Below are positions 1 through 19,359 of a DNA stretch of 40,127 nt, piece after piece; positions within the stretch are counted from its first letter, which is position 1; every line of letters starts with the position of its first letter. The notes below the pieces were generated by a model that was not told the DNA's origin, did not search any database, and saw only the letters and a program-made list of their open reading frames with translations. The DNA lies in IMG/VR virus record IMGVR_UViG_3300045000_000051, positions 1-40,127 of that record; one strand, written 5' to 3'. The stretch is from a virus. Taxonomy: Duplodnaviria; Caudoviricetes. The position numbers were made by a program, and so were the translations under genes.

Positions 1-375
1 TATCTGCGCGGATAGCTTCGCGATGGCCGCTTCCAGACGATCCAGAGAGTCAGCAACTTCAGACGATCCTGACTCGATCGCGGCTTCGACTGCTGCAAGG
101 CGGGCTAGCAGACCCTTGCTCTCCGCTTGGCCTGGAGGCGCGAAGTCGTCAGGCGTGTAGCGACCGTCAGACAGCTCGGCCAGCTTGACCCTGTAGCGCT
201 GCTCCGGATAAGACGGCTTGCCTGGCGCCGTCCACTTGATGACCGTGGTTCGGGCGGCGCCGAGCAAGTCGGCTAAGTCGTCTTTCGAGATGTAGCCCAG
301 GCGCGAGCGCCGCTCCTTCGGAGGCGGGATTCGCCTGCGCACGTCCTCGATGCGCTCCGCTGGCGTCGTTGGCAT
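1..375 (-). CDS. XRE-family HTH immunity repressor (CI-like), 3' end outside the window
   Basis: Not in the ORF track. Manual translation from ATG at 375: MPTTPAERIEDVRRRIPPPKERRSRLGYISKDDLADLLGAARTTVIKWTAPGKPSYPEQRYRVKLAELS..., open to base 1; HTH pattern; divergent from the Cro-like gene. Confidence 0.75.
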   Translation of the reverse strand, partial: MPTTPAERIEDVRRRIPPPKERRSRLGYISKDDLADLLGAARTTVIKWTAPGKPSYPEQRYRVKLAELSDGRYTPDDFAPPGQAESKGLLARLAAVEAAIESGSSEVADSLDRLEAAIAKLSAQI

Positions 376-380
376 GGCTT

Positions 381-470
381 CACGTTCCGACACGTATCGA
401 AGTTTCGCTACGCCGTTGTTCCCTGGTAAGTCTCGCCGCCCTTGACACGTATCGACACGTCTGCTTTAGT
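381..470. promoter_or_regulatory. Divergent immunity switch: rightward -35 TTGACA overlapped by repeated operator-like GACACGT motifs
   Basis: GACACGTATCGA at 389-400 and 444-455; (GA)CACGT repeated with 10-bp period at 381-400 and 444-460; TTGACA at 442-447; -10 uncertain (TTTAGT 465-470). Confidence 0.65.
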
Positions 471-479
471 GCGAGACCT

Positions 480-842
480 ATGAAGACCACGCAATCAACT
501 CGGCGCGTCCCCAAGCACGTCCGAGGGCTACCGCTCAAGGATCGAATGAAGTGGGCGCGCACGTCCGTTGGGCTCTCGCATGACCGCCTGGTGGCGGAGA
601 TGGGCCGAAGCAACCGGGGCCACCTGATCAAGGTCGAGGCTGGCACCCACATCCCTCGCGAGGACCTGCGGAACACATGGGCCGACGCGACCAACGTGCC
701 GCGCGAGCTGTTCGCGTCCGACGACGACGAGGAGTCGCGAGCTATGCCTCTCAGCCGTGACGAGTTCGCCATGCTCGGCGCGTTGATGGCTCGGCTCGGG
801 CCGACGCTCGCACCGACGTTCGGCGAGGAGGTGCAGGCGTGA
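480..842 (+). CDS. Cro-like XRE HTH regulator
   Basis: DRMKWARTSVGLSHDRLVAEMGRSNRGHLIKVEAGTHIP fits an XRE HTH; ATG 480 lies just downstream of TTGACA and is preferred over the track start at 369. Confidence 0.75.
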   Translation: MKTTQSTRRVPKHVRGLPLKDRMKWARTSVGLSHDRLVAEMGRSNRGHLIKVEAGTHIPREDLRNTWADATNVPRELFASDDDEESRAMPLSRDEFAMLGALMARLGPTLAPTFGEEVQA

Positions 843-1096
843 GCGTCTACCGCGACATCACGGTCAGCCGCGAAGACGCCGACCACCTCCTCGAGATCGC
901 CCGGTTCCTGCGGCACCTCTCCAATGCCGCTGACGGCCTCGGCCCGTACGGCTGCTGGGCCGACGACCTCGTCATGGTCGCCCACCGCTACGACCGCGCC
1001 ACCAAGCTCGCCGACCTGCGCACCGAGGTTCTGCAGTTCGAGCGTGCGCGGGTCGGGCGCCCCCTGGTTCTCATCGAAGGAGGAGACGCAGCGTGA
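839..1096 (+). CDS. Hypothetical early protein
   Basis: GTGA overlap with the previous gene; GAGGAGG RBS. Confidence 0.65.
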   Translation: MSVYRDITVSREDADHLLEIARFLRHLSNAADGLGPYGCWADDLVMVAHRYDRATKLADLRTEVLQFERARVGRPLVLIEGGDAA

Positions 1097-1365
1097 GCGT
1101 CGAGACCGAGCAGGAGCCGACCCGGATCGAGGCGCCGCTGAATCCGCTGCTCTCGATCCTCGTCACGCTCGCCGCGCACGGCCAGAAGGTCGACTACTCC
1201 CTCGACGTCTTCAACCTGCCGCGCGACCTCTACGACGAGTTGCCCGGAGAGCGCGAGCACTCTTGGGTGGCACGCGAGACGCGGAACTGGTGCAAGGTCA
1301 CTGAGCTTGCCGACGTGAAGCTCACGCTCTACACGGTCGAGCCGCCCGCCAAGGATGTGGCGTGA
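1093..1365 (+). CDS. Hypothetical early protein
   Basis: GTGA overlap; GGAGG RBS. Confidence 0.65.
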   Translation: MSVETEQEPTRIEAPLNPLLSILVTLAAHGQKVDYSLDVFNLPRDLYDELPGEREHSWVARETRNWCKVTELADVKLTLYTVEPPAKDVA

Positions 1366-1526
1366 GCACCGAGCAGGTCTCTGAGGCACGGGTGGCGCTC
1401 GACCGGGCCTACGCCGCGTGGAAGCTTGCACCAAAGTTTTGGGCTAAGGCGACACCGAAGGTAGACGCCAACGACGCCGCGGCACCGGCTCTCTTCGAGG
1501 GTCTGAACCCCGGTGATGCGTCGTGA
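1362..1526 (+). CDS. Small hypothetical protein (54 aa)
   Basis: Manual ORF MSTEQVSEARVALDRAYAAWKLAPKFWAK...; fills the gap with GTGA overlaps at both ends. Confidence 0.55.
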   Translation: MSTEQVSEARVALDRAYAAWKLAPKFWAKATPKVDANDAAAPALFEGLNPGDAS

Positions 1527-2533
1527 CGGACGGTCAGGTCATCGTGGGCGAGGTCGTGCATGAGCAGGCGCTCGACCAGGCCGAGACCGAAGCCCGGAAC
1601 CTGCCGGCGGTGCGCGCCGCCGAGGCGATGGTCACCCGGGCAGAAGTCACCGTTGAAGAGATCGTTGAGCAACGCAACAAGGTCGTCGCGGTGATGGCGG
1701 CCGTCATGAAGGACAACGTCCACTTCGGCCGCATCCCCGGCGTTCAGAAGCCCACCCTGCTGAAGCCCGGCGCCGAGGTGCTCGCCGTCTCGTTCCGGCT
1801 CGCACCGTTCTACGAGTCCGAACGGATCTGGCATGAGGACGGCCACCTGACGGTCGTGTCGAAGGTTGTGCTGAAACACATTCCGACCGGCTTGACGATC
1901 GCGGAAGGGGAGGGGCTCTGCTCGTCGCGCGAGTCGAAGTACGCGTGGCGGAAAGGCGAGCGGCTGTGCCCGGCGTGCGGGCAGGCGACGATCATCAAGA
2001 GCAAGGCGGAGTACGGCGGCGGCTGGTCATGCTGGAAGAAGAAGGGCGGCTGCGACGCGAAGTACGTCGACGGCGACCACGCGATCGAGGGTCAGAGCGT
2101 CGACAAGGTGCCGAACCCGGACATCGCCGACACCTTTAACACGGTGTTGAAGATGAGCAACAAGCGTGGGTTCGTCGCGGCGATCCTGAACGGGACCGCC
2201 GCGTCGGACGTGTTCACACAGGACATCGAAGACACCGGTGCCGACACCGGCGAGCGCGTCGAGACGGTGGTACTGGCCCCGCAGCGGCTGCCTCTGATCC
2301 GGGACGTTGAGGCGCTACTGGCCCGCGTCGACACGGAGCGCGGCGTCGAGCCGGGCACCACCTGGGACGAGGCCCGCGCGTGGACAGGCGCTGATCTGCC
2401 GGAGATGCCGGAGGCCGACCTGATGAAGCTCGGTCATACGCTCGGCCATTTCTACGTGCTGATGAAGGACGGCATGAACAAGGTCGGGTTCGAGAAGTTC
2501 GCCGCCAACGCCGACATCGAGGTGCCGTTCTGA
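1523..2533 (+). CDS. Putative phage recombination / single-strand annealing protein with a zinc-ribbon insert
   Basis: HFGRIPGVQKPTLLKPGAE and FTQDIED motifs; CPACG...WSCWKKKGGC ribbon; acidic DIEVPF C-terminus resembling SSB-type tails; family assignment is inference. Confidence 0.5.
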   Translation: MTDGQVIVGEVVHEQALDQAETEARNLPAVRAAEAMVTRAEVTVEEIVEQRNKVVAVMAAVMKDNVHFGRIPGVQKPTLLKPGAEVLAVSFRLAPFYESERIWHEDGHLTVVSKVVLKHIPTGLTIAEGEGLCSSRESKYAWRKGERLCPACGQATIIKSKAEYGGGWSCWKKKGGCDAKYVDGDHAIEGQSVDKVPNPDIADTFNTVLKMSNKRGFVAAILNGTAASDVFTQDIEDTGADTGERVETVVLAPQRLPLIRDVEALLARVDTERGVEPGTTWDEARAWTGADLPEMPEADLMKLGHTLGHFYVLMKDGMNKVGFEKFAANADIEVPF

Positions 2534-2700
2534 TGGGCTGGCACGGCGACTACGACCTGCTGCGCGAAGCCCGGGAGGACACCCGCCGCGACATGCCGGA
2601 CGCCCGGCAGTTGGAGCAGGCGGACGGGAAGCTGATGGACGGCGCCCGCGAGCGCGAAGCCTCCCCGGTCGGCACGTGGCTGGCGAGGAAGGCCGCGTGA
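2533..2700 (+). CDS. Small hypothetical protein (55 aa)
   Basis: Manual ORF MGWHGDYDLLREARED...ARKAA with TGATG coupling at both ends. Confidence 0.55.
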   Translation: MGWHGDYDLLREAREDTRRDMPDARQLEQADGKLMDGAREREASPVGTWLARKAA

Positions 2701-3095
2701 TGGCTTTCAACGTGACGCCGCCGTTCCCGAAGCAGCAGCAGCTCGCGCGGGCGAAGCGGCAGGCGAACCCGAAGCGTGACCCGGACGCGCCGCTGAACTT
2801 CAAGACGCGCGTGTGCGCGGAGCCGTGCCTGATCGGCGGCGACTGCGACGGCCCGTTGCAGGCAGCGCACGTCGTCCCGAAACGGGTCTTGAAGCGCCGC
2901 GGTCTGCATCGGCTGCTGTGGGATCCCGCCAACGGCATCGCGCTCTGCTACCGCCATCACCGCCGCCACGACAACGGCACCGAGAAGATCCCGGCCGCCC
3001 TGCTGCCGGCCCGGTGTGTCGCGTGGGCTGAGGCTCATGGGCTGCTGCCGGTTCTGGAACGCCACTGGCCCTACAGCACGAAGCAGGCATCGTGA
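2700..3095 (+). CDS. HNH / His-Me finger nuclease-like protein (NinG-like)
   Basis: C-x5-C...LQAAHVVP...WDPANGIALCYRHHRRHD; TGATG coupled start. Confidence 0.7.
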   Translation: MAFNVTPPFPKQQQLARAKRQANPKRDPDAPLNFKTRVCAEPCLIGGDCDGPLQAAHVVPKRVLKRRGLHRLLWDPANGIALCYRHHRRHDNGTEKIPAALLPARCVAWAEAHGLLPVLERHWPYSTKQAS

Positions 3096-3376
3096 CCTGG
3101 GCTCGCGAGAACGTTGCTGTACTCGAACGTCAGCCGAGGTACGGCGGTCTGCACCTCGTCGGCGTGATCGTGGAGCGGCACTGCGGCTGCCAGGCGCGCC
3201 TCGGCCTCCGGCTCGATCGCAACGAGAAGACGTTCAGCGCTGCCGCGTGCGAGCAGCACGGCGTCCACGTGCACAGGGCGATGGACGCGCTCAAGCACAT
3301 GCCGCCGCAAGACGAGGAGATCTTCGCGCTCTTTGAGCGGCTGGTCGAACGCGAGCTCGAGGCGGTGCCCGCATGA
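3092..3376 (+). CDS. Hypothetical protein
   Basis: Coupled ORF; HCGC and CEQH motifs. Confidence 0.6.
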   Translation: MTWARENVAVLERQPRYGGLHLVGVIVERHCGCQARLGLRLDRNEKTFSAAACEQHGVHVHRAMDALKHMPPQDEEIFALFERLVERELEAVPA

Positions 3377-3465
3377 ACGACCGTCGACTGATCCGGCTCT
3401 CGTTGCTGGCTGTTCTGGTAGCGGTAGGGGTGGCTGCGGCAGCACTCGCAGGGGGACAGCAATGA
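3373..3465 (+). CDS. Small membrane peptide (30 aa)
   Basis: Manual ORF MNDRRLIRLSLLAVLVAVGVAAAALAGGQQ; ATGA overlaps at both ends. Confidence 0.5.
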   Translation: MNDRRLIRLSLLAVLVAVGVAAAALAGGQQ

Positions 3466-4631
3466 GCCCCGGGACGCGCGTGACGTGCGAAGACGTCGCG
3501 ACCGGCGAGAGCGAGTCGAGGGTGATCCGCGACGACTGGGTGATCGTCACCGATGGCCGCGTCGAGGTTGACGCGATCAACGTCTACAGCAACGGCACCG
3601 TCAACGTCACGCTCCTCGGTGCGTCTGTCACGCTCCTCGGTGCGTCTGCTGTCCCTGGGGACGGACGAGAGGAAGAAAAAGAGCATCTTGGAGGCGACGG
3701 GGTCGCCGTGGTAAAGGCGGAAGAGCCGCAACAGATTTCAGATGTCGGCGGGGGAAGGGCGAAGCGCGAGCCTGACCCGGTAAGCCCGATCGGTGCCCGC
3801 GCACACACCCCCTCGAGCGCGACGCGCTGCGACGAGACGGGCAAGCAGGCCGGTCCCAGTGGTAGTGCGCACGAAGCCGCTGGGGCACCAATCTCCGAGC
3901 CTTCGGCGGGGCGTCCCGGAACTGATGCCACAGACACAGTGTCACCCGCATCAGTCGCCGATCAGTTGTCGGTGGGGCGTCCCGAGCGGACATGCCCGTC
4001 GTGCGGCAAGACGCGCCCGCCGACCGGCGGAGCGTTCTGCAACCAAGGCTGTGAGCGGAGCTACGAGCTTTCGGTGGGGCGTCCCGAACCAGCAGAAACA
4101 GCGCGGGCGGTCATCTCGAAGGCCGAGAGCGTGCGGTCAGTTGGGTGGACGTATGACGAATCGCGAGTCCCGTTCACCGAGGCTCTAGCCCGTGACGTGC
4201 TGGCGCTTGTGGCGCGGCTGGACACACTCAGCCAGGAGCGCGACGAGGCGGTAGAGAACGAGACCAAAGCGCTGCGGGCTAGTACGGATCTGACCATCAA
4301 GCTCGGGGCGGCCATCAAGGAGATGCACGGCACACCGGCCCATGACCGCTTTCTACTTCGGCGGGAGTTGGCCGAGGCTCGGGCCGAGCTTGAGCGGGTC
4401 ACCCGGGAACGCGACGAGGCGGTGCAGGAACTCAGCCACTGGAAGGATTGCAACCTCTACCCGTCTACCTACCGCGATGCCGTCGAGTCCCTCCTGGCCG
4501 CCGAGTCTGAGGCGGCGAAGCTCGCACAGGTGCTCCGCGAGGTGGCGGCCGACCTTGACGATTCGTGTCGTCTGAACACCGCGACCGAGGCTGAAGTTCG
4601 TGCGGCTCTTCGCTCTGTGGAGGAGGCGTGA
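3462..4631 (+). CDS. Mosaic hypothetical protein with zinc finger and C-terminal coiled coil
   Basis: ATG 3462 with GGGGGA RBS; CPSC...FCNQGC; ERDEAV coiled-coil repeats; internal SxGRP repeats. Confidence 0.6.
   Translation: MSPGTRVTCEDVATGESESRVIRDDWVIVTDGRVEVDAINVYSNGTVNVTLLGASVTLLGASAVPGDGREEEKEHLGGDGVAVVKAEEPQQISDVGGGRAKREPDPVSPIGARAHTPSSATRCDETGKQAGPSGSAHEAAGAPISEPSAGRPGTDATDTVSPASVADQLSVGRPERTCPSCGKTRPPTGGAFCNQGCERSYELSVGRPEPAETARAVISKAESVRSVGWTYDESRVPFTEALARDVLALVARLDTLSQERDEAVENETKALRASTDLTIKLGAAIKEMHGTPAHDRFLLRRELAEARAELERVTRERDEAVQELSHWKDCNLYPSTYRDAVESLLAAESEAAKLAQVLREVAADLDDSCRLNTATEAEVRAALRSVEEA
3606..3647 (+). repeat. Perfect 21-bp tandem duplication (VTLLGAS x2)
   Basis: GTCACGCTCCTCGGTGCGTCT at 3606-3626 and 3627-3647. 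Confidence 0.9.
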
Positions 4632-4960
4632 CCATGCCGGAATCGCTGAACGATGCCCGTCTGTCGAACGGCGAGACGGTCGCCTCCGCGCTCGAAGTGG
4701 TCGCCTTTTGCAAGGGCCATTACGCCGGAATGCCGGGTTGCGAGAGCTGCCGGGAGCGCGTGCGGCTGATCGCGGAGCGCGAGCAGCAGCTACGCGACGA
4801 AGGTAAGCGCTTCGCCGACTGGATCGACCAGCTGCTGACGGCGCTCGAGTCGATGGTGCTCGAATCGTTGCCGTTGAGCCGCGGCGCGCTGGCGCAGCTC
4901 TCCGGAGCGTACGTCAGGATCGCGGCGTTCCGCGCTGCGTTGGCGGAAGGGCAGTCGTGA
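4628..4960 (+). CDS. Hypothetical protein
   Basis: GGAGGAGG RBS; coupled; C-x2-H...CESC motif. Confidence 0.6.
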   Translation: MTMPESLNDARLSNGETVASALEVVAFCKGHYAGMPGCESCRERVRLIAEREQQLRDEGKRFADWIDQLLTALESMVLESLPLSRGALAQLSGAYVRIAAFRAALAEGQS

Positions 4961-5187
4961 TCCCGGCCGCAGTGAGCGTCGAGATGCGTCTCCGCGAGAA
5001 GGTCGACGCGCTGCGGTTCGAGCTCGACTGTCGCGACGCCCGCATCGAAGACCTCCACGCGCGCCTCGCGCGCGAGAACCCGGCCCTGCCGGCAGGGCGG
5101 TGCGGCTACTGCGGCGACCGGTGTTACGGCCCCGCCTGCGTCCTGCACCGCGACCTGCTCCTCGTTGACACGGAGGTACCCGCGTGA
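4957..5187 (+). CDS. Small coiled-coil / zinc-binding protein
   Basis: Coupled ORF; CGYCGDRC...CVLH. Confidence 0.6.
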   Translation: MIPAAVSVEMRLREKVDALRFELDCRDARIEDLHARLARENPALPAGRCGYCGDRCYGPACVLHRDLLLVDTEVPA

Positions 5188-5393
5188 CGCTCTTCGACGC
5201 TTACGCATCCCTGGCGAGGCCCGGCGAGATCGCTGACCGCCTCCGCGAGTGGGCTGCCGGTCTTGACCTTCGGCTCGACTACGCGCGCGCCGACGCCGTC
5301 CGTGAGATCGCTGCTGAGATTGAGGGCGACGCCGCCTTTGAGCGGATCTGCGAACGCAGGCTTGAGGACGCTGGTCGCGAGGTTGCCTGGTGA
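5184..5393 (+). CDS. Hypothetical protein
   Basis: GGAGG RBS; coupled. Confidence 0.6.
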   Translation: MTLFDAYASLARPGEIADRLREWAAGLDLRLDYARADAVREIAAEIEGDAAFERICERRLEDAGREVAW

Positions 5394-5536
5394 TCCCGGC
5401 CGCGCTCGAGCAGGTCGTCTACATCGTCGGGGCGTTCGTCATCGTCGCCGCGGTCGCGCTCTTCCTCGCGCTGTTGCTGCTGCTCGCGTATGCGGCGGTC
5501 AGGCCGAGGCCGAAGCGTGCCGGGAGGATCGCGTGA
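5390..5536 (+). CDS. Small membrane protein (48 aa)
   Basis: Manual ORF MIPAALEQVVYIVGAFVIVAAVALFLALLLLLAYAAVRPRPKRAGRIA; GTGA overlaps at both ends. Confidence 0.55.
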   Translation: MIPAALEQVVYIVGAFVIVAAVALFLALLLLLAYAAVRPRPKRAGRIA

Positions 5537-6708
5537 CCGCCGCCATCGAGTTGACGCGCACGCGCGAGGACTTGGACTACATCACCGAGGACGTGTTGGA
5601 AGCATTGCCCGCTGGTGAGAGGGTGCGGCTCATGACCATCTCACACGCAGTAGACCTTTGGCTCGGCGAGCTCGAACGGAAGAACCACAGCGAGCGGACC
5701 GTCGACACCTACCGCCGGCTGCTCGACCGGCTCTCGGATGGACGCGAACGGATCGACGTTGAGGACGTTGACGCCCAGACGATCCGCAGGTTCCTGGATG
5801 AGCAGGCCCGCCTGAAGAACGGTGGCCGTAAGAGCGCCGCAACGATCGCTCAGAACGTGTCGATCGTCTGCGGCTTCTTCGACTGGCTGACCAAGGAAGG
5901 CGTCGTTCAGCGGAACCCGACGCAACGAAACGGCGACCGGATCATCAGTCGCCCCCGCCAGGTCGCGCCCGACGAGAACGACAACGTCACCACCGTCGGC
6001 GAGGCCGACGTGCTGCGGCTGCTCAAGACGTCAATCCGCATGGCCGCCGCGAAGCCGACGCACTGGAATCGGATGATCGCCGTTCACGCGCTCGTCTACC
6101 TCGGGCCACGCCGGACAGCGATGTCGAGCACACGGATCAGCGACTACGACCCCGACGAGCGGATGGTGACGTTCCACGAGAAGGGCGGCAAGACGATCCG
6201 CAAGCCCGTCCCGGATGACCTCGCCGTGATCATCGACCAGGCGATCGCCGACGGCCGCTACCCGAACCCCGACGACTACCTGATCCCGTCGGACTACTCG
6301 CCGCGGCGGGAGGGCGACCGTGACTCACGGGTGATATGGAGGCTCGTCAAGGACGTCGCCGGCAAGGCTGGTGTCGAGACGCACGTTCATGCGCTGCGCG
6401 CCGCGTTCGCCGTCAACTACTTGCAGCAGAACCCTGGTCAGGTCGTCGCGCTACAGAAGCTGATGGGGCATCGTCGTATCGAGACGACGATGGTCTACCT
6501 TCGCCGCCTCGATCGGCAGGCTCAGATGGAGTCGGTCAGGACGATGACCTGGGGAGCCTCCGAAAAGCCGCAAATTGCGTCTAAACCTTTGGTGTCCTCC
6601 GCAGTAGCGGAGAAGGAGGGATTCGAACCCTCGTTCAGCGCTAGGCGGGATCGTAGCGGGGCTGGAACCCATAGCGCACCTGATGCACCAGGCAGGGACG
6701 GCTTCTGA
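5533..6708 (+). CDS. int: Tyrosine recombinase / integrase
   Basis: Core-binding region (SERTVDTYRRLL); catalytic set R (LGPRR), K (EKGGK), HxxR (HALRAAF), H (LMGH), Y (TTMVY); GTG start with GGAGG RBS. Confidence 0.92.
   Translation: MTAAIELTRTREDLDYITEDVLEALPAGERVRLMTISHAVDLWLGELERKNHSERTVDTYRRLLDRLSDGRERIDVEDVDAQTIRRFLDEQARLKNGGRKSAATIAQNVSIVCGFFDWLTKEGVVQRNPTQRNGDRIISRPRQVAPDENDNVTTVGEADVLRLLKTSIRMAAAKPTHWNRMIAVHALVYLGPRRTAMSSTRISDYDPDERMVTFHEKGGKTIRKPVPDDLAVIIDQAIADGRYPNPDDYLIPSDYSPRREGDRDSRVIWRLVKDVAGKAGVETHVHALRAAFAVNYLQQNPGQVVALQKLMGHRRIETTMVYLRRLDRQAQMESVRTMTWGASEKPQIASKPLVSSAVAEKEGFEPSFSARRDRSGAGTHSAPDAPGRDGF
6607..6633 (-). other. tRNA-Ser 3'-end fragment, probable attP core, inside int
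   Basis: Minus strand reads CGAGGG-TTCGAAT-CCCTC-CTTCTCC-G-C: T-stem and loop, 3' acceptor strand and G discriminator; no D or anticodon arm upstream. Confidence 0.8.
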
Positions 6709-7223
6709 TGGGCGCCCCGCGGAAGTTCGACCACGACGAGGCCCGGGCTCTGCACGCGGCGGGTGTGCCGGTGAAGGAGATCGCGGCGCGGGTCGGCGTG
6801 ACCGTCACCGCGATCTACCGTCTCGTGACCTCGGGTTGGCTAGAACGCGAGCGCGAGTATGGTCGCCGCTACCAGAAGTCGGCCCTCTGCGCCGACTGCG
6901 GCGGTCCCTGCACGCGGGCTGGGCACCCCTCCCAGGGCGCCCACGGAGTCACTCTCTGCCTCACCTGCGCGAAAAAGCGCGACCGGACACGGTTCGTTGA
7001 GATCGACGGCGAGATGCACGCCAAGTGCTTCACGTGCAGCGAGATGAAGGCGCTGGACGAGTTCGCCGCAGGGAACCGCTACCGAGACGTTCGCCCCAAC
7101 GGCGTACACGCCAGCTGCCGCGACTGCAACACGGCGATGAAGCGCGCCTGGCGGAACGCCAATCGCGAAAAGCAGCGCGCGTACGACCGCGAGCGGAAGC
7201 GTCGGCAGAAGGCTGCTGCCTGA
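6708..7223 (+). CDS. HTH plus multiple zinc-ribbon DNA-binding protein
   Basis: N-terminal HTH (GVPVKEIAARVGVTVTAIYRL); CADC, CLTC, CFTC, CRDC; TGATG coupled to int. Confidence 0.7.
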   Translation: MGAPRKFDHDEARALHAAGVPVKEIAARVGVTVTAIYRLVTSGWLEREREYGRRYQKSALCADCGGPCTRAGHPSQGAHGVTLCLTCAKKRDRTRFVEIDGEMHAKCFTCSEMKALDEFAAGNRYRDVRPNGVHASCRDCNTAMKRAWRNANREKQRAYDRERKRRQKAAA

Positions 7224-7543
7224 TGCGCGGCTATCTCCTTATCGCCGCCGTGACGGTCGCCGCCTGCATGACGGTGATCGCCCTCATCCCTGATCCCAAG
7301 TTCGGTGCCGCCCAACCCACGCACGTCTCCTCCCCTCGTGCAGGGCTGACGGCTGCGGCACCGACGCCATCCCGGGCGGTGACCGACTCCCCGTCCGGTC
7401 ACCCCGGGATGGCACGTCTTCTCGCAGTCCTCACCGCAGCCGGGCTCTTCCTGTGCTGCGCGGCGGACATTCGCACGCCGGGCCACACGCCCGAGGACAC
7501 GCCCCCTCACAAGGAGACGGCTTCATCCGCCGCCACACCATGA
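7223..7543 (+). CDS. Hypothetical membrane protein
   Basis: Hydrophobic segments YLLIAAVTVAACMTVIALI and LLAVLTAAGLFLCC; coupled. Confidence 0.5.
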   Translation: MRGYLLIAAVTVAACMTVIALIPDPKFGAAQPTHVSSPRAGLTAAAPTPSRAVTDSPSGHPGMARLLAVLTAAGLFLCCAADIRTPGHTPEDTPPHKETASSAATP

Positions 7544-7977
7544 ACCTGCTGATCCTCATCTACCTGCTCTTCACCGTCGGCGCGCTCGCCGTCTGGCTGC
7601 CGCGCGCGCTCGCATCCAGCTACCGGCCGATGCCCGCCAACTGGCACGCACCACGGCCGTGGCTCTATGAGGCGTGGTGCCTCCACGACGGCATCAAGCG
7701 CGACGCACGGGGCCGCGAGCTCTACCGCGTCACGCTGCACGGCCGCCCGATGATGGGCGAGGGCGCCTGGAACGCCGCCACCGGCAACGGCTACGAAGGT
7801 GGACTTCAGTTCCTGCTCTCGACGTGGCTGCGCGCCGGCGGGGTCACGGTCGGCGGCCACTGGGCGTCGATCGTCTCGCCGCGGGAGCAGCTGTACCGGA
7901 CCCGGATCATCTGGAACGCCAACGGCGGCTCCTTCGCCGAGTGGGGCGACATGCGCGTCGCGTGTGGCCTCCGATGA
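7540..7977 (+). CDS. Secreted Rpf-like (resuscitation-promoting factor) transglycosylase
   Basis: Signal-peptide-like N-terminus ending ALA; GEGAWNAATGNGYEGGLQFLLSTWLRAGG...SPREQ...W..CG matches the Rpf consensus CESGGNWxxNTGNGYYGGLQFxxxTWxxxGG...SREQQ...WPxCG. Confidence 0.82.
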   Translation: MNLLILIYLLFTVGALAVWLPRALASSYRPMPANWHAPRPWLYEAWCLHDGIKRDARGRELYRVTLHGRPMMGEGAWNAATGNGYEGGLQFLLSTWLRAGGVTVGGHWASIVSPREQLYRTRIIWNANGGSFAEWGDMRVACGLR

Positions 7978-8234
7978 CGACGCTCGACGACCTCTTCGTT
8001 CCGATCGCGCCCACCATCAGCGACGAGCAGCGGTGCTTCTGCGGCGAGTTGTTGACGATCGAGTACGGCGACTACGGCACCGTCTACGGCGCCGAGTGCC
8101 CGCGCTGCGACGTGCTCGAGCCGTGCCCTGGGTGCGGCGGCGAGCGCGACCATCCGGCGCTCCGCTGGTGCCCGCCCTGCCGCCGCCGCGGCGCGGCCGT
8201 CCTCACCGACGGCCGGATGGCGGTGCGGGTGTGA
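7974..8234 (+). CDS. Small zinc-finger protein
   Basis: CFC, CPRC, CPGC, CPPC; ATGA coupled. Confidence 0.6.
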   Translation: MTTLDDLFVPIAPTISDEQRCFCGELLTIEYGDYGTVYGAECPRCDVLEPCPGCGGERDHPALRWCPPCRRRGAAVLTDGRMAVRV

Positions 8235-8680
8235 TCGGCGTCCACCAGACGATCCTTACGAAGGAGGAGGGCGGCAACTGCTTCGCCGCCTGCCTCGCCT
8301 CGATCCTTGAGGTGCCGCTCGTCGCCGTGCCGAACGCGGCTGTGCTGTGGGCGCAGGGCGAGGTCGACGAAGGCTGGTCACTGATCAACGATTGGCTCGC
8401 GTCGCTCGGCCTTCGCATCGGGTCGTTCGACGGGGATCCGGATGGCTGGCTGCCTCACGGCTACTGGATCGCGATCGTTCCGTCGCTCAAGCTGCCGGGA
8501 GAGACGCACGCCGTCGTCTTTCAGGGGCGCGACTTCGTCTGGGATCCGCGCGCAGACGCTGAGCGCGCGCGGACGCTCGACGAGGTCATCGCGGTCGATG
8601 CTCTCTTCTGCCTCGACCCGGCGCTGCTGGCCCGAGCGCTGCCGCTCATCCGCGAGAAGGCCGCGGAGATCGCGGCGTGA
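8231..8680 (+). CDS. Papain-fold (C39-like) cysteine peptidase-like protein
   Basis: Q...GNCFAACLASIL, THAVVF and WDP give the Cys-His-Asp order. Confidence 0.55.
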   Translation: MIGVHQTILTKEEGGNCFAACLASILEVPLVAVPNAAVLWAQGEVDEGWSLINDWLASLGLRIGSFDGDPDGWLPHGYWIAIVPSLKLPGETHAVVFQGRDFVWDPRADAERARTLDEVIAVDALFCLDPALLARALPLIREKAAEIAA

Positions 8681-8982
8681 CGGCCCTCGCGTTGATGGTG
8701 CCGGTCGAGGAGGTGCGGGCGGGCGACACGCTCCAACGCCCCTCCGGCACCGAGCACACGGTGCGCAGCGTCGAGCACTACCCGGCGCGGCAGACGGGCG
8801 AGTACCTGCAGCCGGAGTCGTTCATCGTCGTCTACGTCTCGCACGAGGAGACGTCGTTCGAGAACAAGGCGACGGACAAGTCCGGCTTCAACAGCCGGTC
8901 GTCACGCGGCGGCGTGTTGAAGCAGTGGAAGCCGTTGGCCCCTGGTGAGTTCGTCCCGCTCGCCAGACGGGCCGCAGCGTGA
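8677..8982 (+). CDS. Hypothetical protein
   Basis: Coupled ORF; GGAG RBS. Confidence 0.55.
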   Translation: MTALALMVPVEEVRAGDTLQRPSGTEHTVRSVEHYPARQTGEYLQPESFIVVYVSHEETSFENKATDKSGFNSRSSRGGVLKQWKPLAPGEFVPLARRAAA

Positions 8983-10697
8983 ACGGCCTGACCGCGACCG
9001 ACCAGTTCTGCGGGGCGGGCGGCTCGAGCCTCGGCGCCGCGATCGCGGGCGTCGAGCTCCGCCTGGGCCTGAACCACTCGCAGCTCGCGATCGACACGCA
9101 CAACACGAACTTCCCTGACGCCGACCACGACTGCACCGACATCTCGGCGTGCGACCCGCGCCGCTACCCGTCGACCGACATCCTGATCACGTCGCCCGAG
9201 TGCACGAACCACACGCTCGCGAAGGGCGCCCGCCGTAAGCCGGTGCTGGCGCCGTCGCTGCTCGACGAGGCCCCGTTGAACGACGAGCTCGCGGAGCGGT
9301 CGCGGGCAACGATGTGGGACGTCGTCCGGTTCACGGAGTTCCACGCCTACAAGATCGTGATCGCCGAGAACGTCACGGACGCCTTCTGGTGGGGGCCGCG
9401 CGTGCCGGGCTTCAAGATGGGCAACGGCGAGCTCTTCAACGCGTGGCTGAATGCGATGGACGCGCTTGGCTACCGGCACCGCGTGGTGCTGCTCAACAGC
9501 ATGTTTGCGCCGCCGACGCCGCAGTCCCGGGACCGGATGTACGTCGTCTTCTGGCGGAAGGGTCAGCGCGACCCGAATCTCGACTTCGACGTGACGGCGT
9601 GGTGTCCGCGCTGCGAGCGTGTCGTGCAGGCCCGGCAGTCGTGGAAGACACATCTGCTCAAGAAGAGCGCCGGTCGGCCGTGGGGCTCGTACGGCCGGCA
9701 GTATGTCTACGCGTGCCCTGACTGCCAGGCTCAGGCGTGGCCCGGGGCGTATCCGGCGGGCACCGCGATCGACTGGACGCTCGTCGGGCAACGGATCGGC
9801 GACCGTAAGCGCGCGCTGGCGCGGGACACCCGCGGCCGGATCAGCGGCTACCTACAACGCTACGGCGTGCAGGGCGGAACGTTTCGCCTGCTTCACGACG
9901 GCGGCGCGCGGCCGCTGACGATCCCTCTGATCACTCAGACTGGGCGTCAGGACATCGGCCTGCTGATGCCGGTCGCGGCGAACCGCTCGGAGCGCACGAC
10001 GGGCGCGCGTACGCGGACGACGGATCAGCCGATGACGACCAGGACGGAGACGTCCGACCTGGCGCTCGTGGTGCCTCTTCGGCGTCATGCCGCGGCGCTG
10101 GACACGGCCGGCGAGTCGCTTCCGACGGTGTGCGCGAGCGGGAACCACCACGGCCTCGTGGAGCGGCGAACGGCGGCGGTGTTGTCGAACATGGCCGGGA
10201 ACGCTCCGCGCGACGCTGAGACGGAGCCTTCGCACGTGGTTACGACCGGCGGGAAGCTCGCCGTCGTCGAGCCAGGCGCGGGCGCGTTCGTGATGCGCAA
10301 CAACACTGCGCGCGGCGACTCGGGGCAGATGTCGACTCCGATCGTGGAGCCGCTGCGCACCCTGACCGGGGCCGGTCATCAGTCGCTCGTCGTGCCCTAT
10401 CACCGCACCGGGGAGGCGCAGCCGGTCGAGGAGCCGATCGGCACGCTGACGACGCGTGACCGCTTCGCGCTCGTCGACCTCGAGGAGGTCATCGACGACT
10501 GCACCTTCCGGATGCTGCAGCCGCACGAGATCGCCCGGGCGATGGTCATGCACGAGCACGTCGACGGCTCCCCGTACATCGTGCTCGGCAACAAGCGCGA
10601 CCGCGTCGCGCAGTACGGCAACGCCGTCACGCCGCCCGTGATGCGGATGCTCGTCGAGCGGTGCGCCGCCTCGCTCGAGCCTGGCGGTGTCGCATGA
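8979..10697 (+). CDS. C5-cytosine DNA methyltransferase
   Basis: Motif I DQFCGAGG, catalytic SPEC, ENV, QSRDR, C-terminal YGNAVTPP; internal zinc ribbon. Confidence 0.93.
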   Translation: MNGLTATDQFCGAGGSSLGAAIAGVELRLGLNHSQLAIDTHNTNFPDADHDCTDISACDPRRYPSTDILITSPECTNHTLAKGARRKPVLAPSLLDEAPLNDELAERSRATMWDVVRFTEFHAYKIVIAENVTDAFWWGPRVPGFKMGNGELFNAWLNAMDALGYRHRVVLLNSMFAPPTPQSRDRMYVVFWRKGQRDPNLDFDVTAWCPRCERVVQARQSWKTHLLKKSAGRPWGSYGRQYVYACPDCQAQAWPGAYPAGTAIDWTLVGQRIGDRKRALARDTRGRISGYLQRYGVQGGTFRLLHDGGARPLTIPLITQTGRQDIGLLMPVAANRSERTTGARTRTTDQPMTTRTETSDLALVVPLRRHAAALDTAGESLPTVCASGNHHGLVERRTAAVLSNMAGNAPRDAETEPSHVVTTGGKLAVVEPGAGAFVMRNNTARGDSGQMSTPIVEPLRTLTGAGHQSLVVPYHRTGEAQPVEEPIGTLTTRDRFALVDLEEVIDDCTFRMLQPHEIARAMVMHEHVDGSPYIVLGNKRDRVAQYGNAVTPPVMRMLVERCAASLEPGGVA

Positions 10698-11125
10698 CCG
10701 CCCACGACTCGCTGATCGAGTGCCGCAACTGCTTCGTCGCTTGCGGTGGTTGCCCGAAGACCAGGCCTGTTTCCGTTCGCACGCTGAACGACTACGCCGA
10801 CGAGTGCCACGTCGCGAACGCGAAGTGGTGGCAGCGCGAGGACGGCTCGCGGATCGAGCGCAACAAGGGCGAGCTTCTGATGCTGATCGTGTCCGAGGTC
10901 GCGGAGGCGATGGAGGGCGAGCGGAAGGGCTTGATGGACGACAAGCTGCCACATCGCCTGATGGCCGAGGTCGAGCTTGCCGACGCGCTGATCCGCATCT
11001 TCGACTACGCCGCGGCGTTCGGCTACGACCTGCAAGGCGCGTTCGTCGAGAAGATGGCCTACAACGCGCGGCGCGAAGATCACACGCACGAGGCCCGCGC
11101 CCTCGCCGAGGGCAAGAAGTGGTAG
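10694..11125 (+). CDS. MazG-like nucleotide pyrophosphohydrolase
   Basis: LMLIVSEVAEAMEG...EVELADALIRIFD...EKMAYNARR gives the ExxE...ExxD all-alpha NTP-PPase pattern. Confidence 0.8.
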   Translation: MTAHDSLIECRNCFVACGGCPKTRPVSVRTLNDYADECHVANAKWWQREDGSRIERNKGELLMLIVSEVAEAMEGERKGLMDDKLPHRLMAEVELADALIRIFDYAAAFGYDLQGAFVEKMAYNARREDHTHEARALAEGKKW

Positions 11126-12138
11126 ATCGCGGCACGCCCACCGAGCTCCGCGACTCGCCCGTCACGATCGCCAACGGCCGCGCCTCGGTCACGTTCGACC
11201 GGTACGACCTCGACGCCTACCGGCTCTTCCTCCGCGCGAAACAGCTGCCGGAGAAGGAGATCGCCTACGACTGGGCGACGGACAGCTACACGCTGACCAC
11301 GAGCGCACGGTTCGCCGGGTTCCTGCAGGACGGCGCCGTGGTCACGGCCGGGACCGACGTCGCGCTCGCTGAGCATCTCTTCGACTATCAGGCGTTCATC
11401 GTCCGGCAGGCCCTCGACGCCCGCCGCTACGCGATCTGGGCGGACACCGGTTTGGGGAAGACGGCGATGCTGCTGGAGTGGGCGCGGCAGGTGCGCGACC
11501 TCACCGGCGGCCGCGTGCTGATCCTGGCGCCGACGCATGAGCTGATCGACCAGCACCGCGACGAGTGGGAGCGCTTCTACCCGGGCGAGGTGTCGATCCC
11601 GAAGAACCCGCAGGTGATCGCGCAACGGCAGAAGCTGCACTCGCTGCTGTTCATCACCGGCCGGCGGAACGCCCGCGACCTCGCCCCCGCCGTCAACGAC
11701 TTCCTCCTGATCTTCCAGAAGCCCGGCGAGGCCGAACCCGTGAAGGCGCTCCGCCATGAGGAGAACCCCGCCGGCTGGGTCACGGGTGACGAGTGGATCA
11801 GGTGGGCGCGCGGCACCTGGGACGACATCCGCGAAACCGACGTCCTCGAAGGCTGGAAAGACGTCCGCGACACCGACGACGAAAAGCACGTCTGCCCGCT
11901 CCAGCTCGAGGTGATCCGCCGCTGCGTAAAGCTCTACTCCAGCCCCGGCGACCTCGTCCTCGACCCGTTCATGGGGATCGGCTCCACCGCCTACGTCGCG
12001 CTCGAGCAGGGCCGTCAGGCGGTCGGGTTCGAGCTGAAGGAGTCGTACCACCGGCAGGCCGTGAAGAACGCCGCGCTCGCGCTCGAGCGCGACCCCGAAG
12101 GGCAGACATCGTTGCTTGACCTGCCGGAGGCGGTCTGA
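11119..12138 (+). pseudogene. In-frame chimera: N-terminal SF2 helicase fragment fused to the C-terminal half of a beta-class N6/N4 DNA methyltransferase
   Basis: LFDYQ, DTGLGKT and VLILAP are present but DExx and later helicase motifs are absent; KHVCPLQL and VLDPFMGIGST are present but the catalytic (D/S)PP(Y/F) is absent. Confidence 0.7.
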
Positions 12139-12350
12139 TGGCCGAGAAGTCCTACCGGGGTCTGGTGATCGTGCTCCGCTGCGGGTGTCGGCTCTTTCCG
12201 GCCGACGACTCGCACGTGTCGCTCGCGCTGCGCGCGTTCATGGCTGGCGCCGTCGCCCAACCGCCGGTCGAGCACGCGCGTTGCTTCGTCCACGGCCGCC
12301 AGAGGATGGCCGTTGCAGTTGACGTCGCCAAGGGGGCAAGCATCCTGTGA
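12138..12350 (+). CDS. Small hypothetical protein
   Basis: GGAGG RBS; TGATG coupling; CGC and CFVHG. Confidence 0.55.
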   Translation: MAEKSYRGLVIVLRCGCRLFPADDSHVSLALRAFMAGAVAQPPVEHARCFVHGRQRMAVAVDVAKGASIL

Positions 12351-12790
12351 GCGCCCGCTGCGACTACTGCGGCGCGGTAGCGGTCACGAACGGCGGCGGT
12401 GCCCTCGTCCTTCGCCACGGCGAAGGCTGCGCAGACGCCGCGGTCGTCAAGCTCGCGTCGGCGGTCCGGTCTCACCGCTACCGGTACGCGAACGAAGACG
12501 AGCTGCAGCAGGGTTTGGCCGACGCGCTCACCGATGCTGGCTGGGAGGTGGAGCGCGAGGTGCGGCTCGACCGGTTCAGCCGCATCGACCTCCTGATCGG
12601 AAGGATCGGGATCGAGGTCAAGGTGGCCAGCACGGCGGCGGAGGTTGAGCGGCAGGTTCGCCGCTACCTCGAGACACGCCTTCTCGACGGGATCGTCGTC
12701 GTCACCAGCCGAGTCCGGCACCTCGGTCTTCCGGCGAACATTGACGGCCGCCCGGTCGAAGTCGTCACCCTCGCGGGCGGCGGACTGTGA
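12347..12790 (+). CDS. PD-(D/E)XK nuclease-like protein
   Basis: EDELQ...VEREV...RIDLL...IGIEVKV...QVRRYL. Confidence 0.72.
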   Translation: MSARCDYCGAVAVTNGGGALVLRHGEGCADAAVVKLASAVRSHRYRYANEDELQQGLADALTDAGWEVEREVRLDRFSRIDLLIGRIGIEVKVASTAAEVERQVRRYLETRLLDGIVVVTSRVRHLGLPANIDGRPVEVVTLAGGGL

Positions 12791-12936
12791 GGCTGCGTGT
12801 CCTCGCGCTGTGCCGGACGTACATCGACGCGGCGGAGAAGGCTGCGGCGCTCGCCGACCGGAAGCGTCACCGCCGATTCACCGTGCGGAAGTCGCGCCGC
12901 GGCTGGCAGGTCTTGGAGGTGCGGCGTGGCCGGTAG
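12787..12936 (+). CDS. Small basic hypothetical protein (49 aa)
   Basis: Manual ORF MRLRVLALCRTYIDAAEKAAALADRKRHRRFTVRKSRRGWQVLEVRRGR filling the gap. Confidence 0.4.
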   Translation: MRLRVLALCRTYIDAAEKAAALADRKRHRRFTVRKSRRGWQVLEVRRGR

Positions 12937-17877: not shown

Positions 17878-18419
17878 GCGTCGCGTTGCAGCTCCGGCGG
17901 CAGCCGCTCGCCGGCTTCAGCGAGATCGGTCTCGACGAGGCGAACGAGCTGCTCGTCGACTGGGGCCACTACCTCGGCGACTGCGACAGGCCGTTCCGGT
18001 CGGAAGCCTACGCGTACGACGTCGGCGGCCGGATCGTCTCCGTCGCGGTCAGCTCGAGCGCGGTCAACCACGTCACCGACCTCGATGGCCGCACCTGGCA
18101 TCGCAACGAGATCGTCGAGCTCAGCCGGCTCTGCACCCGGCCGGGTGAGGAGTGGGCAACGAGGGTGATGCTGCGCCAGTGGCGCGAGCTCGCCGCCCCC
18201 GCATGGTGCTGCCCGCGCCCGCGGCGAGGGCTGCGGCCGCTCGTCGCGATCGCCTACTCGAAGAACGACCGGCACGACGGCCGCATCTACCGCTTCGACG
18301 GCTGGGAGAAGATCCGCGAGACAGCAGGATCGGGCGGCGGCGGCGCCTGGTCTCGGAAGCAGTACGCCAGTGACGCCGCGCATGGCCGGAAGACGCTCTG
18401 GCTCTGGCGGCTCGCGTGA
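17874..18419 (+). CDS. Mom-like GNAT-fold DNA-modification protein
   Basis: EANELL..WGHYLG, VELSRLC, AIAYS...HDGRIYRFDGW, KTLW match the Mu Mom-like pattern ELxRL...GxIYxAxGW. Confidence 0.65.
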   Translation: MSVALQLRRQPLAGFSEIGLDEANELLVDWGHYLGDCDRPFRSEAYAYDVGGRIVSVAVSSSAVNHVTDLDGRTWHRNEIVELSRLCTRPGEEWATRVMLRQWRELAAPAWCCPRPRRGLRPLVAIAYSKNDRHDGRIYRFDGWEKIRETAGSGGGGAWSRKQYASDAAHGRKTLWLWRLA

Positions 18420-19150: not shown

Positions 19151-19359
19151 TGCCGTCACGTCTCACCCTCGAAGAGTGGACAGTCGCCCAGCAGGTCTGC
19201 ACCAAAGAACAGCTCATTGCCCTCGACTACTGGCGACGCGACGCCGGCTACAAGACCATCGCCATGGCTGTAGGCGTCAGCCGCGACTCAGCCCGAGGAC
19301 GCATCGACAGAGCACTCGACCGCATCACCAGAGAACTCGAACGAAGAGCAGCAGCATGA
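19150..19359 (+). CDS. Sigma-70 region-4-like HTH protein, putative late activator
   Basis: TKEQLIALDYW...GYKTIAMAVGVSRDSARGRIDRALDRI; last early gene. Confidence 0.65.
   Translation: MPSRLTLEEWTVAQQVCTKEQLIALDYWRRDAGYKTIAMAVGVSRDSARGRIDRALDRITRELERRAAA

What the first reader, a model, noticed from the sequence alone, without database searches (positions are those of the whole stretch)
5533..6710. Probable attP inside the integrase 3' end, mid early operon: a candidate excision-gated lytic switch
Seen: minus-strand 6633-6607 is a tRNA T-arm plus 3' acceptor strand, Ser-like, and encodes AEKEGFEPS in Int just after the catalytic Tyr. Phage genes continue on both sides, and int is TGATG-coupled to the next gene. 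int is co-oriented in the Cro operon about 5 kb from the repressor. Known: tyrosine integrases often target tRNA 3' ends; attP lies within int in Mx8 and SSV1, and within the repressor gene in mycobacteriophage BPs. Inference: integration keeps the catalytic core but replaces the last ~25 aa of Int. It also permutes the genome so that the methylase, helicase, DnaB and late genes are cut off from the Cro promoter until excision rejoins them, enforcing excision before replication.
Basis: partly seen in the sequence, partly recalled or inferred. Interest (0 to 1): 0.85.

Follow-up and report, generated by a model that had tools for sequence, protein, structure and literature searches.

The report
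Phage integration splits its lytic operon
This soil-bacterium phage carries an exact copy of the end of a host serine-tRNA gene inside the tail of its own integrase gene, in the middle of one long run of same-direction genes, and relatives are found split at that spot; inserting into the host would likely unplug the replication genes from their promoter until the phage cuts itself out again, a layout also seen in phage Mx8 and a switch already shown for Tn916 and the virus SNJ2.

Summary
Confirmed. Window 6607-6633 is identical to the 3' end of a Gaiellaceae tRNA-Ser(GCT) and lies in the last 102 nt of a tyrosine integrase gene (5533-6708). It is attP. Relatives occur in integrated form, with int running into an intact tRNA (Ser, Tyr, Glu or Cys). 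A MAG element carries this Ser core at both ends. A related 41.7-kb provirus begins with the post-int genes and ends at int. Integration would swap 24 C-terminal residues for about 9. The layout repressor / cro ... int(attP) ... replication ... terminase is conserved: replication genes were downstream of attP in 13 of the 16 loci where any were detected. Int's stop overlaps the next start more often than controls, and no promoter-like site was found between attP and the replication gene. Excision-gated replication is therefore the likely mechanism (about 0.6), but it is inferred: no RNA data, no excisionase found, and one relative has its initiator upstream. It is not a new principle. Mx8 has the same layout, and gating by circularisation is published for Tn916 and SNJ2. 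Verdict: a clade-wide variant in Gaiellales-type phages.

The parts
1..375 (-). Repressor-like (XRE/HTH) gene, cut by the contig end
   Evidence: Gene call; Atlas lead XRE HTH, score 0.89 and TM 0.64, a lead only; matching leftward genes of relatives hit PHROG repressors
376..479 (.). Divergent control region: three GACACGT operator-like repeats (389, 444, 454) and a promoter-like TTGACA-17-TTTAGT at 442-470
   Evidence: the only 6/6 -35 match found on + between 380 and 19700; function inferred
480..842 (+). Cro-like HTH gene, first gene of the rightward run
   Evidence: PHROG 2328 repressor E 2e-6
839..5536 (+). Early genes upstream of int, nearly all overlapping by 1 or 4 nt (includes an HNH gene; relatives have RecT/Erf/exonuclease here)
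5533..6708 (+). Tyrosine integrase, 391 aa; R194, K217, H286, R289, H313 and Y322 (codon 6496-6498) invariant; folded part ends near W340
   Evidence: Pfam PF00589 and PF02899; alignment A1; AlphaFold pLDDT about 50 after residue 340; Foldseek XerA, XerH, lambda Int
6607..6633 (-). attP common core: 3' end of tRNA-Ser(GCT), T-arm plus acceptor strand, without CCA
   Evidence: Exact match to L026 and L046 tRNA-Ser(GCT); 26-mer found in 120 of 401 genomes of the class of G002; present at both ends of the G002 element
6624..6633 (.). Likely strand-exchange region (inferred)
   Evidence: Identity ends sharply at the equivalent of 6633 in 31 of 31 Ser/Tyr-type sites; relatives L017 and L058, which carry their own whole tRNA-Tyr, keep only the equivalent 10 bp
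6634..6708 (+). attP-only Int tail (24 aa plus stop); would move to the far prophage end and be replaced by about 9 aa read from the antisense tRNA
   Evidence: 10 of 12 held high-GC tRNA-Ser(GCT) records give a 9-aa tail of varied sequence, L026 and its duplicate L118 give MEEFTPITP, L046 gives KEV (11 of 12 are 9 aa); 10 of 120 protein homologues end ...PITP
6708..7223 (+). First post-attP gene (HTH plus HNH-like), TGATG-coupled to int
7540..14683 (+). Transglycosylase, C5 methylase (8979-10697), helicase-methylase (11119-12138), SNF2 helicase (12926-14683)
16543..17877 (+). DnaB-like replicative helicase
   Evidence: Pfam DnaB_C E 4e-96
18416..19150 (+). Probable replication initiator; its A-rich middle with two AAAGAACCACCC copies is a candidate origin (inferred)
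   Evidence: Atlas lead Phage_rep_org_N 0.92; repeats and low-GC island at 18741-18920; no Pfam, PHROG or NCBIfam hit
19150..19359 (+). Small sigma-70-region-4-like HTH, candidate late activator (inferred)
   Evidence: Pfam Sigma70_r4 only E 0.037; its homologue in L014 E 4e-5
20277..21911 (+). Terminase large subunit, start of the virion genes
   Evidence: PHROG E 3e-81

Best explanation
The 27-mer is this phage's attachment site, a copy of the 3' end of a host tRNA-Ser(GCT) placed inside the end of the integrase gene and in the middle of one long same-strand gene run, so integration would cut that run in two and likely leaves the replication genes without their promoter until excision rejoins them. 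Shown by comparison: the site, the target tRNA, integrated relatives with a short Int tail, the permuted order of one provirus, and conserved gene order. Inferred steps: (1) The lysogen reads host - core - orphan 24-aa tail - gene 6708 ... DnaB, initiator, late activator, virion genes ... repressor <- -> cro ... int - restored tRNA - host. (2) When the repressor is inactivated, the promoter at 442-470 can drive only cro through int. (3) The short-tailed Int, with its catalytic domain intact, excises the prophage, probably with a directionality factor not identified here. (4) On the circle, transcription and translational coupling cross attP, and replication and late genes come on. The order would be excision, then replication, then packaging. 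The tail swap (24 aa to about 9) is probably secondary in this phage. Odds: attP about 0.97; continuous operon across attP on the circle about 0.85; replication needs excision about 0.6.
For: Exact tRNA-Ser(GCT) match. After collapsing at 90% identity, 43 of 84 int loci were classed as integrated and 41 as attP-type, and the core lies inside the int frame in 78 of 84. The G002 element has this Ser core at both ends: orphan tail GTGA-coupled to small genes at one end, int then intact tRNA then ProRS at the other. Provirus G727 (portal 67%, capsid 69% identical to the window's) starts with Mom-like, helicase, methylase, O-like initiator (weak, E 2.5e-4) and late-activator-like genes, and ends at int with a tRNA-Glu(TTC)-type tail. 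Replication genes lie downstream of int in 13 of 36 loci examined, upstream in 3, undetected in 20. A PHROG scan of 78 mostly upstream proteins found no further upstream case. Int's stop overlaps a coding start in 14 of 27 attP forms, against 4 of 54 alternative-frame stops, 87 of 355 out-of-frame stops in the int body, and 0 of 32 integrated forms. The core is in frame at 20 of 26 distinct spacings (p 7e-6). A promoter scan hit 0 of 13 attP-to-replication intervals (about 57 kb) but 5 of 12 repressor-cro regions. Precedent for the mechanism: Tn916 (PMC11658703, passages) and SNJ2 (PMC13107129, abstract, section 24 and part of section 29).
Against: No transcript, read or induction data were obtained. 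No complete prophage with both att sites was found: G727 is trimmed at gene boundaries and its Int belongs to the Glu branch (37% identical). The 11 elements with both ends are only 1.2-13.5 kb. Phage locus L015 has a 103-aa initiator-like gene 1.4 kb upstream of int. L010 and L020 have a leftward cassette and a divergent gap just before the initiator, which could hold a rightward promoter. The promoter scan missed 7 of 12 control regions and cannot see phage-activated promoters. A weak site lies at 6858 inside the first post-attP gene (1 found, 1.5 expected). No excisionase was identified among 90 small genes scanned, apart from a weak hit in L072; a separate xis-like hit lies downstream in L003. 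The gene caller is home-made and rewards overlaps; the coupling test was redone without it, but junction counts depend on it.
Confidence: 0.62

Rival explanations
1. The site is attP, but its position has no gating role: the post-attP genes have their own promoter (repressor-controlled, or switched on in trans by an early protein), so the prophage can replicate in place as P22 does.
For: Initiator upstream of int in L015; divergent cassette before the initiator in L010 and L020; limited promoter-scan sensitivity, 5 of 12. P22 replicates before excision (PMC8575938, passages). In SNJ2 the relevant start site lies inside int itself, so promoters can be intragenic.
Against: No operator-like GACACGT cluster and no AT-rich island between attP and the initiator; Int's stop is coupled to the next start above background; replication genes are on the far side of attP in 13 of 16 loci with a detection.
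Confidence: 0.27
2. The main purpose is an Mx8-type switch of integrase activity: the long-tailed Int made from attP favours integration, the short-tailed prophage form is weaker, and gene order is incidental.
For: Mx8 precedent, as reported in PMC6070905 and PMC4701971 (passages). A helical PEPLRRKLxEL-type motif occurs in 25 of 105 tails of 15 aa or more (shuffles 0.9; the pattern was written after seeing the tails). It stays in Int's frame in L097 and L103, where the core is read in another frame.
Against: The window's own tail lacks the motif and is low-confidence in the model. About ten of 120 homologues stop right after the conserved Trp. L010, L017, L058 and L106 keep the mid-operon site outside the int frame. 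Mx8 swaps 112 aa; this phage swaps 24.
Confidence: 0.09
3. The 27-mer is a relic or chance match and is no longer used for integration.
For: The window itself is not seen integrated. Relatives with a broken or missing core exist (L011, a complete circular genome, and L009).
Against: Perfect identity to the host tRNA end, invariant catalytic residues, 0 of 100 shuffles, and integrated-type tails in 10 homologues, four of them 55-58% identical.
Confidence: 0.02

Closest known systems
Myxococcus phage Mx8 (and Mx9): attP inside int
   Same: attP lies in the 3' part of a tyrosine integrase gene and integration changes the C-terminus (PMC6070905, PMC4701971, PMC4383910 passages; primary papers not read). 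The Mx8 record AF396866 also has imm ... xis-int ... replication initiator (p19), DnaC-like (p20) ... terminase, all on one strand, and a T-arm-like stretch read as GLEP in the same frame.
   Different: Integrases not detectably similar by BLASTP (E 0.16). Mx8 replaces 112 aa with 13; this phage replaces 24 with about 9. Mx8 has a recognisable excisionase before int; none was found here. The passages read do not describe gating of Mx8 replication.
Tn916 (circularisation-dependent expression from Porf7)
   Same: Replication and transfer genes are physically separated from the main promoter in the integrated state and are transcribed across the joint only on the circle (PMC11658703 passages).
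   Different: A conjugative element with rolling-circle replication, a mapped insulator terminator and an antiterminator; it integrates at AT-rich sites, not at a tRNA gene. Shown by experiment there, inferred here.
Haloarchaeal pleolipovirus SNJ2
   Same: Excision joins int to replication genes in one compact operon that exists only on the circle (PMC13107129 abstract, section 24, part of section 29; supplementary figures not seen).
   Different: Archaeal, tail-less, probably rolling-circle. The start site is inside int, and attP lies in a new ORF downstream of int. Here the phage is tailed, has DnaB, and the predicted promoter is the cro promoter 6 kb upstream.
Pelagiphages (HTVC019P group)
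   Same: attP lies between int and the downstream RNA polymerase gene and targets tRNA genes, so integration also cuts the early region (10.1101/410191 passages).
   Different: T7-like phages; attP is non-coding and outside int; no gating claim in the passages read.
SSV-type 'suicidal' integrases; mycobacteriophage BPs integration-dependent immunity
   Same: The recombination site lies inside a phage gene (PMC8371274 passages; BPs only from search listings).
   Different: SSV-type integration splits Int into two inactive parts, whereas here all catalytic residues stay together. In BPs the site is in the repressor gene; here the repressor is 6 kb away.

Membership tests
Tyrosine integrase with tRNA 3'-end attP | R-K-H-R-H-Y catalytic set and tyrosine-recombinase fold | tested here: met
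   Invariant R194, K217, H286, R289, H313, Y322 in 66 sequences; Pfam PF00589; Foldseek XerA and lambda Int
Tyrosine integrase with tRNA 3'-end attP | Core identical to the 3' part of a host tRNA, duplicated at both ends of integrated elements | tested here: met
   (G002, same Ser core); 10 further elements with Tyr, Glu or Cys cores
Mx8-type integrase tail switch | attP inside int, downstream of the catalytic Tyr | tested here: met
   Y322 at 6496-6498, core at 6607-6633
Mx8-type integrase tail switch | Integration gives a new short C-terminus | tested here: met
   Integrated relatives end MEEFTPITP*, KEV*, GFEPP*, GFEPVPPP*
Mx8-type integrase tail switch | The two Int forms differ in activity | not testable with these tools
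   Needs assays; this phage's tail is short and low-confidence in the model
Mx8-type integrase tail switch | Sequence kinship with Mx8 Int | tested here: not met
   BLASTP E 0.16; no GenBank phage integrase above 28% identity
Excision-gated operon (Tn916, SNJ2 type) | Replication genes lie across the attachment site from the promoter region, on the same strand | tested here: met
   Window; 13 of 16 loci with a detected replication gene; provirus G727
Excision-gated operon (Tn916, SNJ2 type) | No promoter for those genes inside the integrated element | tested here: inconclusive
   0 of 13 intervals with a consensus hit, but sensitivity only 5 of 12 in control regions; divergent cassettes in L010 and L020
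Excision-gated operon (Tn916, SNJ2 type) | Transcript across the joint only after excision; replication depends on it | not testable with these tools
   No reads or RNA data were available for this phage
SSV-type suicidal integrase | Integration splits Int into inactive N and C parts | tested here: not met
   All catalytic residues lie upstream of the core
BPs-type integration-dependent immunity | attP inside the repressor gene | tested here: not met
   The repressor-like gene is at 1-375 and the single core is in int
tRNA-dependent lysogeny (PMC10865867, abstract) | About 10-bp core that does not rebuild the tRNA, plus a phage-encoded tRNA of the same type | tested here: not met
   The window has a full 3'-restoring core and no tRNA gene; relatives L017 and L058 do fit the pattern

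The most novel reading that the evidence does not exclude
A whole clade of Gaiellales-type tailed phages hard-wires excision before replication by placing attP in the Cro operon, so these prophages cannot replicate or package in place and cannot do lateral transduction. The same recombination event swaps Int's tail for a short peptide read from the antisense host tRNA, usually ending in Pro. Some members then replaced tRNA repair with a phage-borne whole tRNA, leaving a 10-bp core.
Probability: 0.35. Interest if true: 0.68.

Novelty: new variant of a known kind. Interest (0 to 1): 0.47.

Why it matters
Whether a prophage excises before or after it replicates decides whether it can move host DNA by lateral transduction; P22 turned out to replicate first (PMC8575938). 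A tailed phage whose gene order forces excision first would be the opposite design. I found no paper showing such gating for a tailed phage in nine library searches, though most subscription papers, including the primary Mx8 papers, are outside that library. Because Mx8 has the same layout in a culturable host, the idea can be tested now. The work also identifies the likely hosts (Gaiellales) and target tRNAs of an integrase clade with no close GenBank phage relative.

Tried and rejected
Single-protein search of viral contigs with the integrase found no relative; the alignment search did. Rfam gave no tRNA hit at threshold, only a plastid family that shares the T-arm sequence. The built-in promoter scan found 0 sites, missing even 442-470, and terminator hits were at chance level, 8 against 7.7. 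No sequencing run was listed for the stretch, which says nothing either way. My first coupling test (16 of 27 against 6 of 54) leaned on my gene caller and had a biased control; it was replaced. Low-threshold ARAGORN calls (tRNA-Ile in the window; Gln, Gly, Leu, Ala in loci) vanished at default settings where re-run and were dropped. Genomes with two copies of the Ser core, six fetched (G198, G218, G253, G302, G318, plus G005 for Glu), showed tRNA copies on separate contigs and no integrase motif in the stretches taken. Searches for a complete prophage with both att sites gave only small elements and G727: 401 genomes of the order, 14 with the integrase, plus capsid and core scans of viral contigs. 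The core alone does not name the host: most of the 68 viral-contig matches of the Ser 26-mer are lower-GC loci without this integrase. A hairpin upstream of the core as tRNA terminator is not supported in the window (z 0.27), though it is in L030 (z -3.0). An ssrA-like degradation tag on the long Int is not apparent: the window's ends in RDGF, and Ala-rich ends in relatives can be explained by GTGA overlaps (inspection). No complex prediction was sent.

Full report
Observation. The window is a linear IMG/VR virus record of 40,127 bp, 68% G+C, 57% complete by CheckV. It runs from the middle of a leftward repressor-like gene to the gene after the tail genes, and encodes terminase, portal, capsid and tape measure. 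The integrase gene spans 5533-6708 and its stop overlaps the next start as TGATG. Bases 6607-6633 read, on the minus strand, as a tRNA T-arm and 3' acceptor strand, and on the plus strand as AEKEGFEPS. The pattern occurs once in the window and in none of 100 shuffles. The catalytic set is invariant across 66 aligned relatives. The AlphaFold model is confident to about residue 340 and near pLDDT 50 after it, so the core sits in a flexible extension that begins 37 residues after Y322.

It is attP. The 27-mer plus base 6606 is identical to the end of tRNA-Ser(GCT) in a Gaiellaceae MAG (L026) and in L046. The 26-mer occurs in 120 of 401 genomes of that MAG's class. Of the 120 best protein homologues (386 found), 80 read GFEP or GLEP in the tail and 10 end in ...PITP, which is what the antisense of the host tRNA encodes when int is integrated. 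An alignment search gave 116 DNA loci: 24 viral, 12 in MAGs (5 labelled Gaiellaceae, 1 Thermoleophilia, 6 Actinomycetota or Actinomycetes) and 80 metagenomic. With later loci and after collapsing at 90% identity, 84 remained: 43 classed as integrated and 41 as attP-type, with the core inside the int frame in 78 (one 'integrated' call, L017, is really a phage-borne tRNA). Targets are tRNA-Ser(GCT), Tyr(GTA), Glu(CTC), Glu(TTC) and Cys(GCA). G002 holds a 1.8-kb remnant with the same Ser core at both ends: the orphan tail, GTGA-coupled to small genes, at one end; int, the intact tRNA and host ProRS at the other. Ten more elements of 1.2-13.5 kb show both ends with other cores. In a tree of 62 integrases the window groups with Ser-type attP forms; the two integrated Ser loci fall on another branch. 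Integration at Ser(GCT) in the window's own branch therefore rests on protein tails such as P0031, P0035, P0037 and P0047 (55-58% identical).

Host and crossover (inferred). The match lacks an encoded CCA, as in the Gaiellaceae tRNA. Other Thermoleophilia copies fetched mostly encode CCA and are followed at once by tRNA-Arg. Gaiellales is therefore the likely host group. Identity stops at the equivalent of 6633 in all 31 Ser/Tyr-type sites profiled. Two relatives that carry their own whole tRNA-Tyr keep only the last 10 bp of the core (L017, L058). Strand exchange probably lies in 6624-6633, and the rest of the core serves to rebuild the tRNA end. Int would lose residues 368-391 and gain about 9.

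Gene order. From cro-like (480) to 19359 my gene calls form one plus-strand chain, with nearly all junctions overlapping. The three apparent gaps close on inspection with small or low-scoring overlapping ORFs, except 33 nt before dnaB. The one strong promoter-like site lies at 442-470, among three GACACGT repeats. Phage relatives repeat the order: lysis, leftward repressor, cro, recombination genes, int with attP, methylases and nucleases, replication gene, terminase. Replication genes were downstream of int in 13 of 36 loci, upstream in 3 and undetected in 20. The seeds came mostly from downstream genes, so I scanned 78 mostly upstream proteins with PHROGs; this confirmed L015 and L031 and found no other upstream case. 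Of the three upstream cases, L015 is a phage and a true exception; L067 and L031 are integrated elements of unclear type. Provirus G727, whose virion genes are close to the window's, is permuted as predicted: it opens with Mom-like, helicase, methylase, weak O-like initiator and late-activator-like genes and closes with repressor, cro and int ending in a host-tRNA-type tail. Its ends are trimmed to genes, so the far att site is not visible.

Is the operon continuous across attP? Int's stop overlaps a coding start in 14 of 27 attP forms, against 4 of 54 alternative-frame stops, 87 of 355 out-of-frame stops in the int body and 0 of 32 integrated forms. The 25% body figure is the fairer background. 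The core stays in frame at 20 of 26 different spacings. Both results fit selection to keep translation running through attP into the next gene. A consensus-promoter scan hit none of 13 attP-to-replication intervals (about 57 kb) and 5 of 12 repressor-cro regions. Against this, the scan's sensitivity is under half, and L010 and L020 carry a leftward cassette with a divergent gap just before the initiator. A weak site at 6858 is at chance level. No excisionase was found.

Mechanism. Shown: site, target, tail swap in relatives, permutation in one provirus, conserved order. Inferred: one transcript from the cro promoter; silence of the post-attP block in the prophage; excision by the short Int; replication only on the circle. 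I put the gating at about 0.6. The Int tail switch is the weaker half for this phage. Many relatives keep a predicted helix in the attP-only tail (25 of 105 tails, by a pattern written after seeing them), but the window's tail lacks it, and about ten homologues stop before the core.

Comparison with what is known. attP inside int with a new C-terminus is the Mx8 case (PMC6070905, PMC4701971, PMC4383910; passages only, primary papers not read). The Mx8 GenBank record shows the same layout, with a replication initiator and DnaC-like gene downstream of int on the same strand, although the integrases are not detectably similar. Gating by circularisation is published for Tn916 (PMC11658703, passages) and SNJ2 (PMC13107129, abstract, section 24 and the first part of section 29; its co-transcription data are in supplementary figures I did not see). 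Pelagiphages put attP between int and the RNA polymerase gene (10.1101/410191, passages). It is not an SSV-type split (PMC8371274, passages), not BPs-type (search listing only) and not tRNA-dependent lysogeny (PMC10865867, abstract), though some relatives fit the last. Nine searches showed no test of gating in a tailed phage; the library lacks most subscription papers. This scan has noted the same kind of layout in several other genomes; those notes are unchecked leads, not support, but they suggest the layout is common.

Verdict. A real, well-supported attP in a conserved mid-operon position in a clade of Gaiellales-type phages. The excision-first switch is likely but untested, and both halves have precedents. 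New variant of a known kind; interest 0.47.

Noticed in passing
Proteins P0032, P0039, P0042, P0043, P0052, P0053, P0067, P0096 (tRNA-Ser) and P0093 (tRNA-Tyr); loci L017:11290-11372 with remnant at 11710, L058:8045-8127 with remnant at 8235: Some relatives carry a whole tRNA gene, antisense, in or just after the int tail, followed by a core shrunk to about 10 bp. This fits tRNA-dependent lysogeny arising within this clade. The protein cases are read from translations only, without DNA. L024 has a whole tRNA-Tyr but no remnant was found.
   Followed up: partly
G068:C3:1988765-1995263, G202:C9:53001-59193, G405:C2:446585-457652 (tandem), G583:C2:13130-18265, G596, G571, G693, G004: A family of 4.7-6.5 kb integrated elements at tRNA-Glu(CTC) using the same integrase clade, often with a 100-140 aa gene (weakly RHH-like in two) just before int and a conserved PEPLRRKLxEL orphan tail at the far end. 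No replication or virion genes were recognised among those scanned.
   Followed up: partly
Glu-type loci such as L028, L029, L033, L065, just upstream of the core: The int coding strand reads KKPPLSRGF; the opposite strand there is a GC hairpin followed by a T run, placed to terminate the host tRNA transcript inside int (seen). The one folded case, L028, was not significant (z -0.8).
   Followed up: partly
Integrated int forms: Most integrated tails end in Pro before the stop (TP, PP, PPP, RP). C-terminal Pro is recalled to favour ribosome stalling and tmRNA tagging (from memory, no call). It could lower Int in the lysogen, or simply reflect GG-rich tRNA stems; KEV and QASA ends are exceptions.
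   Followed up: no
L010:7629-8948 and L020:8082-9620: Leftward cassettes of small genes ending in an HTH gene, with a TTGACA-type site in the divergent gap, inserted directly before the replication initiator.
   Followed up: partly
L003:4945-7791 and L019:8787-11086: Two integrase genes in tandem; in L003 the second is followed by an excisionase-like gene downstream of attP.
   Followed up: no
L011 (G730, complete 47.3 kb circular genome):10960-11000; L009: Int is intact but the core is broken after the T-loop (L011) or absent (L009); these phages may have lost this integration site.
   Followed up: partly
window 6595-6611 and 6656-6666: An inverted repeat pairs the tRNA 3' end with the bases just beyond it, and a GCGGGGCTGG-like motif about 40 bp after the core start is partly conserved in relatives; candidate accessory binding sites.
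   Followed up: no
window 8979-12138: Two methylases (C5 type and an N6/N4 type fused to a helicase domain) and a pyrophosphatase-like gene lie in the post-attP block.
   Followed up: no
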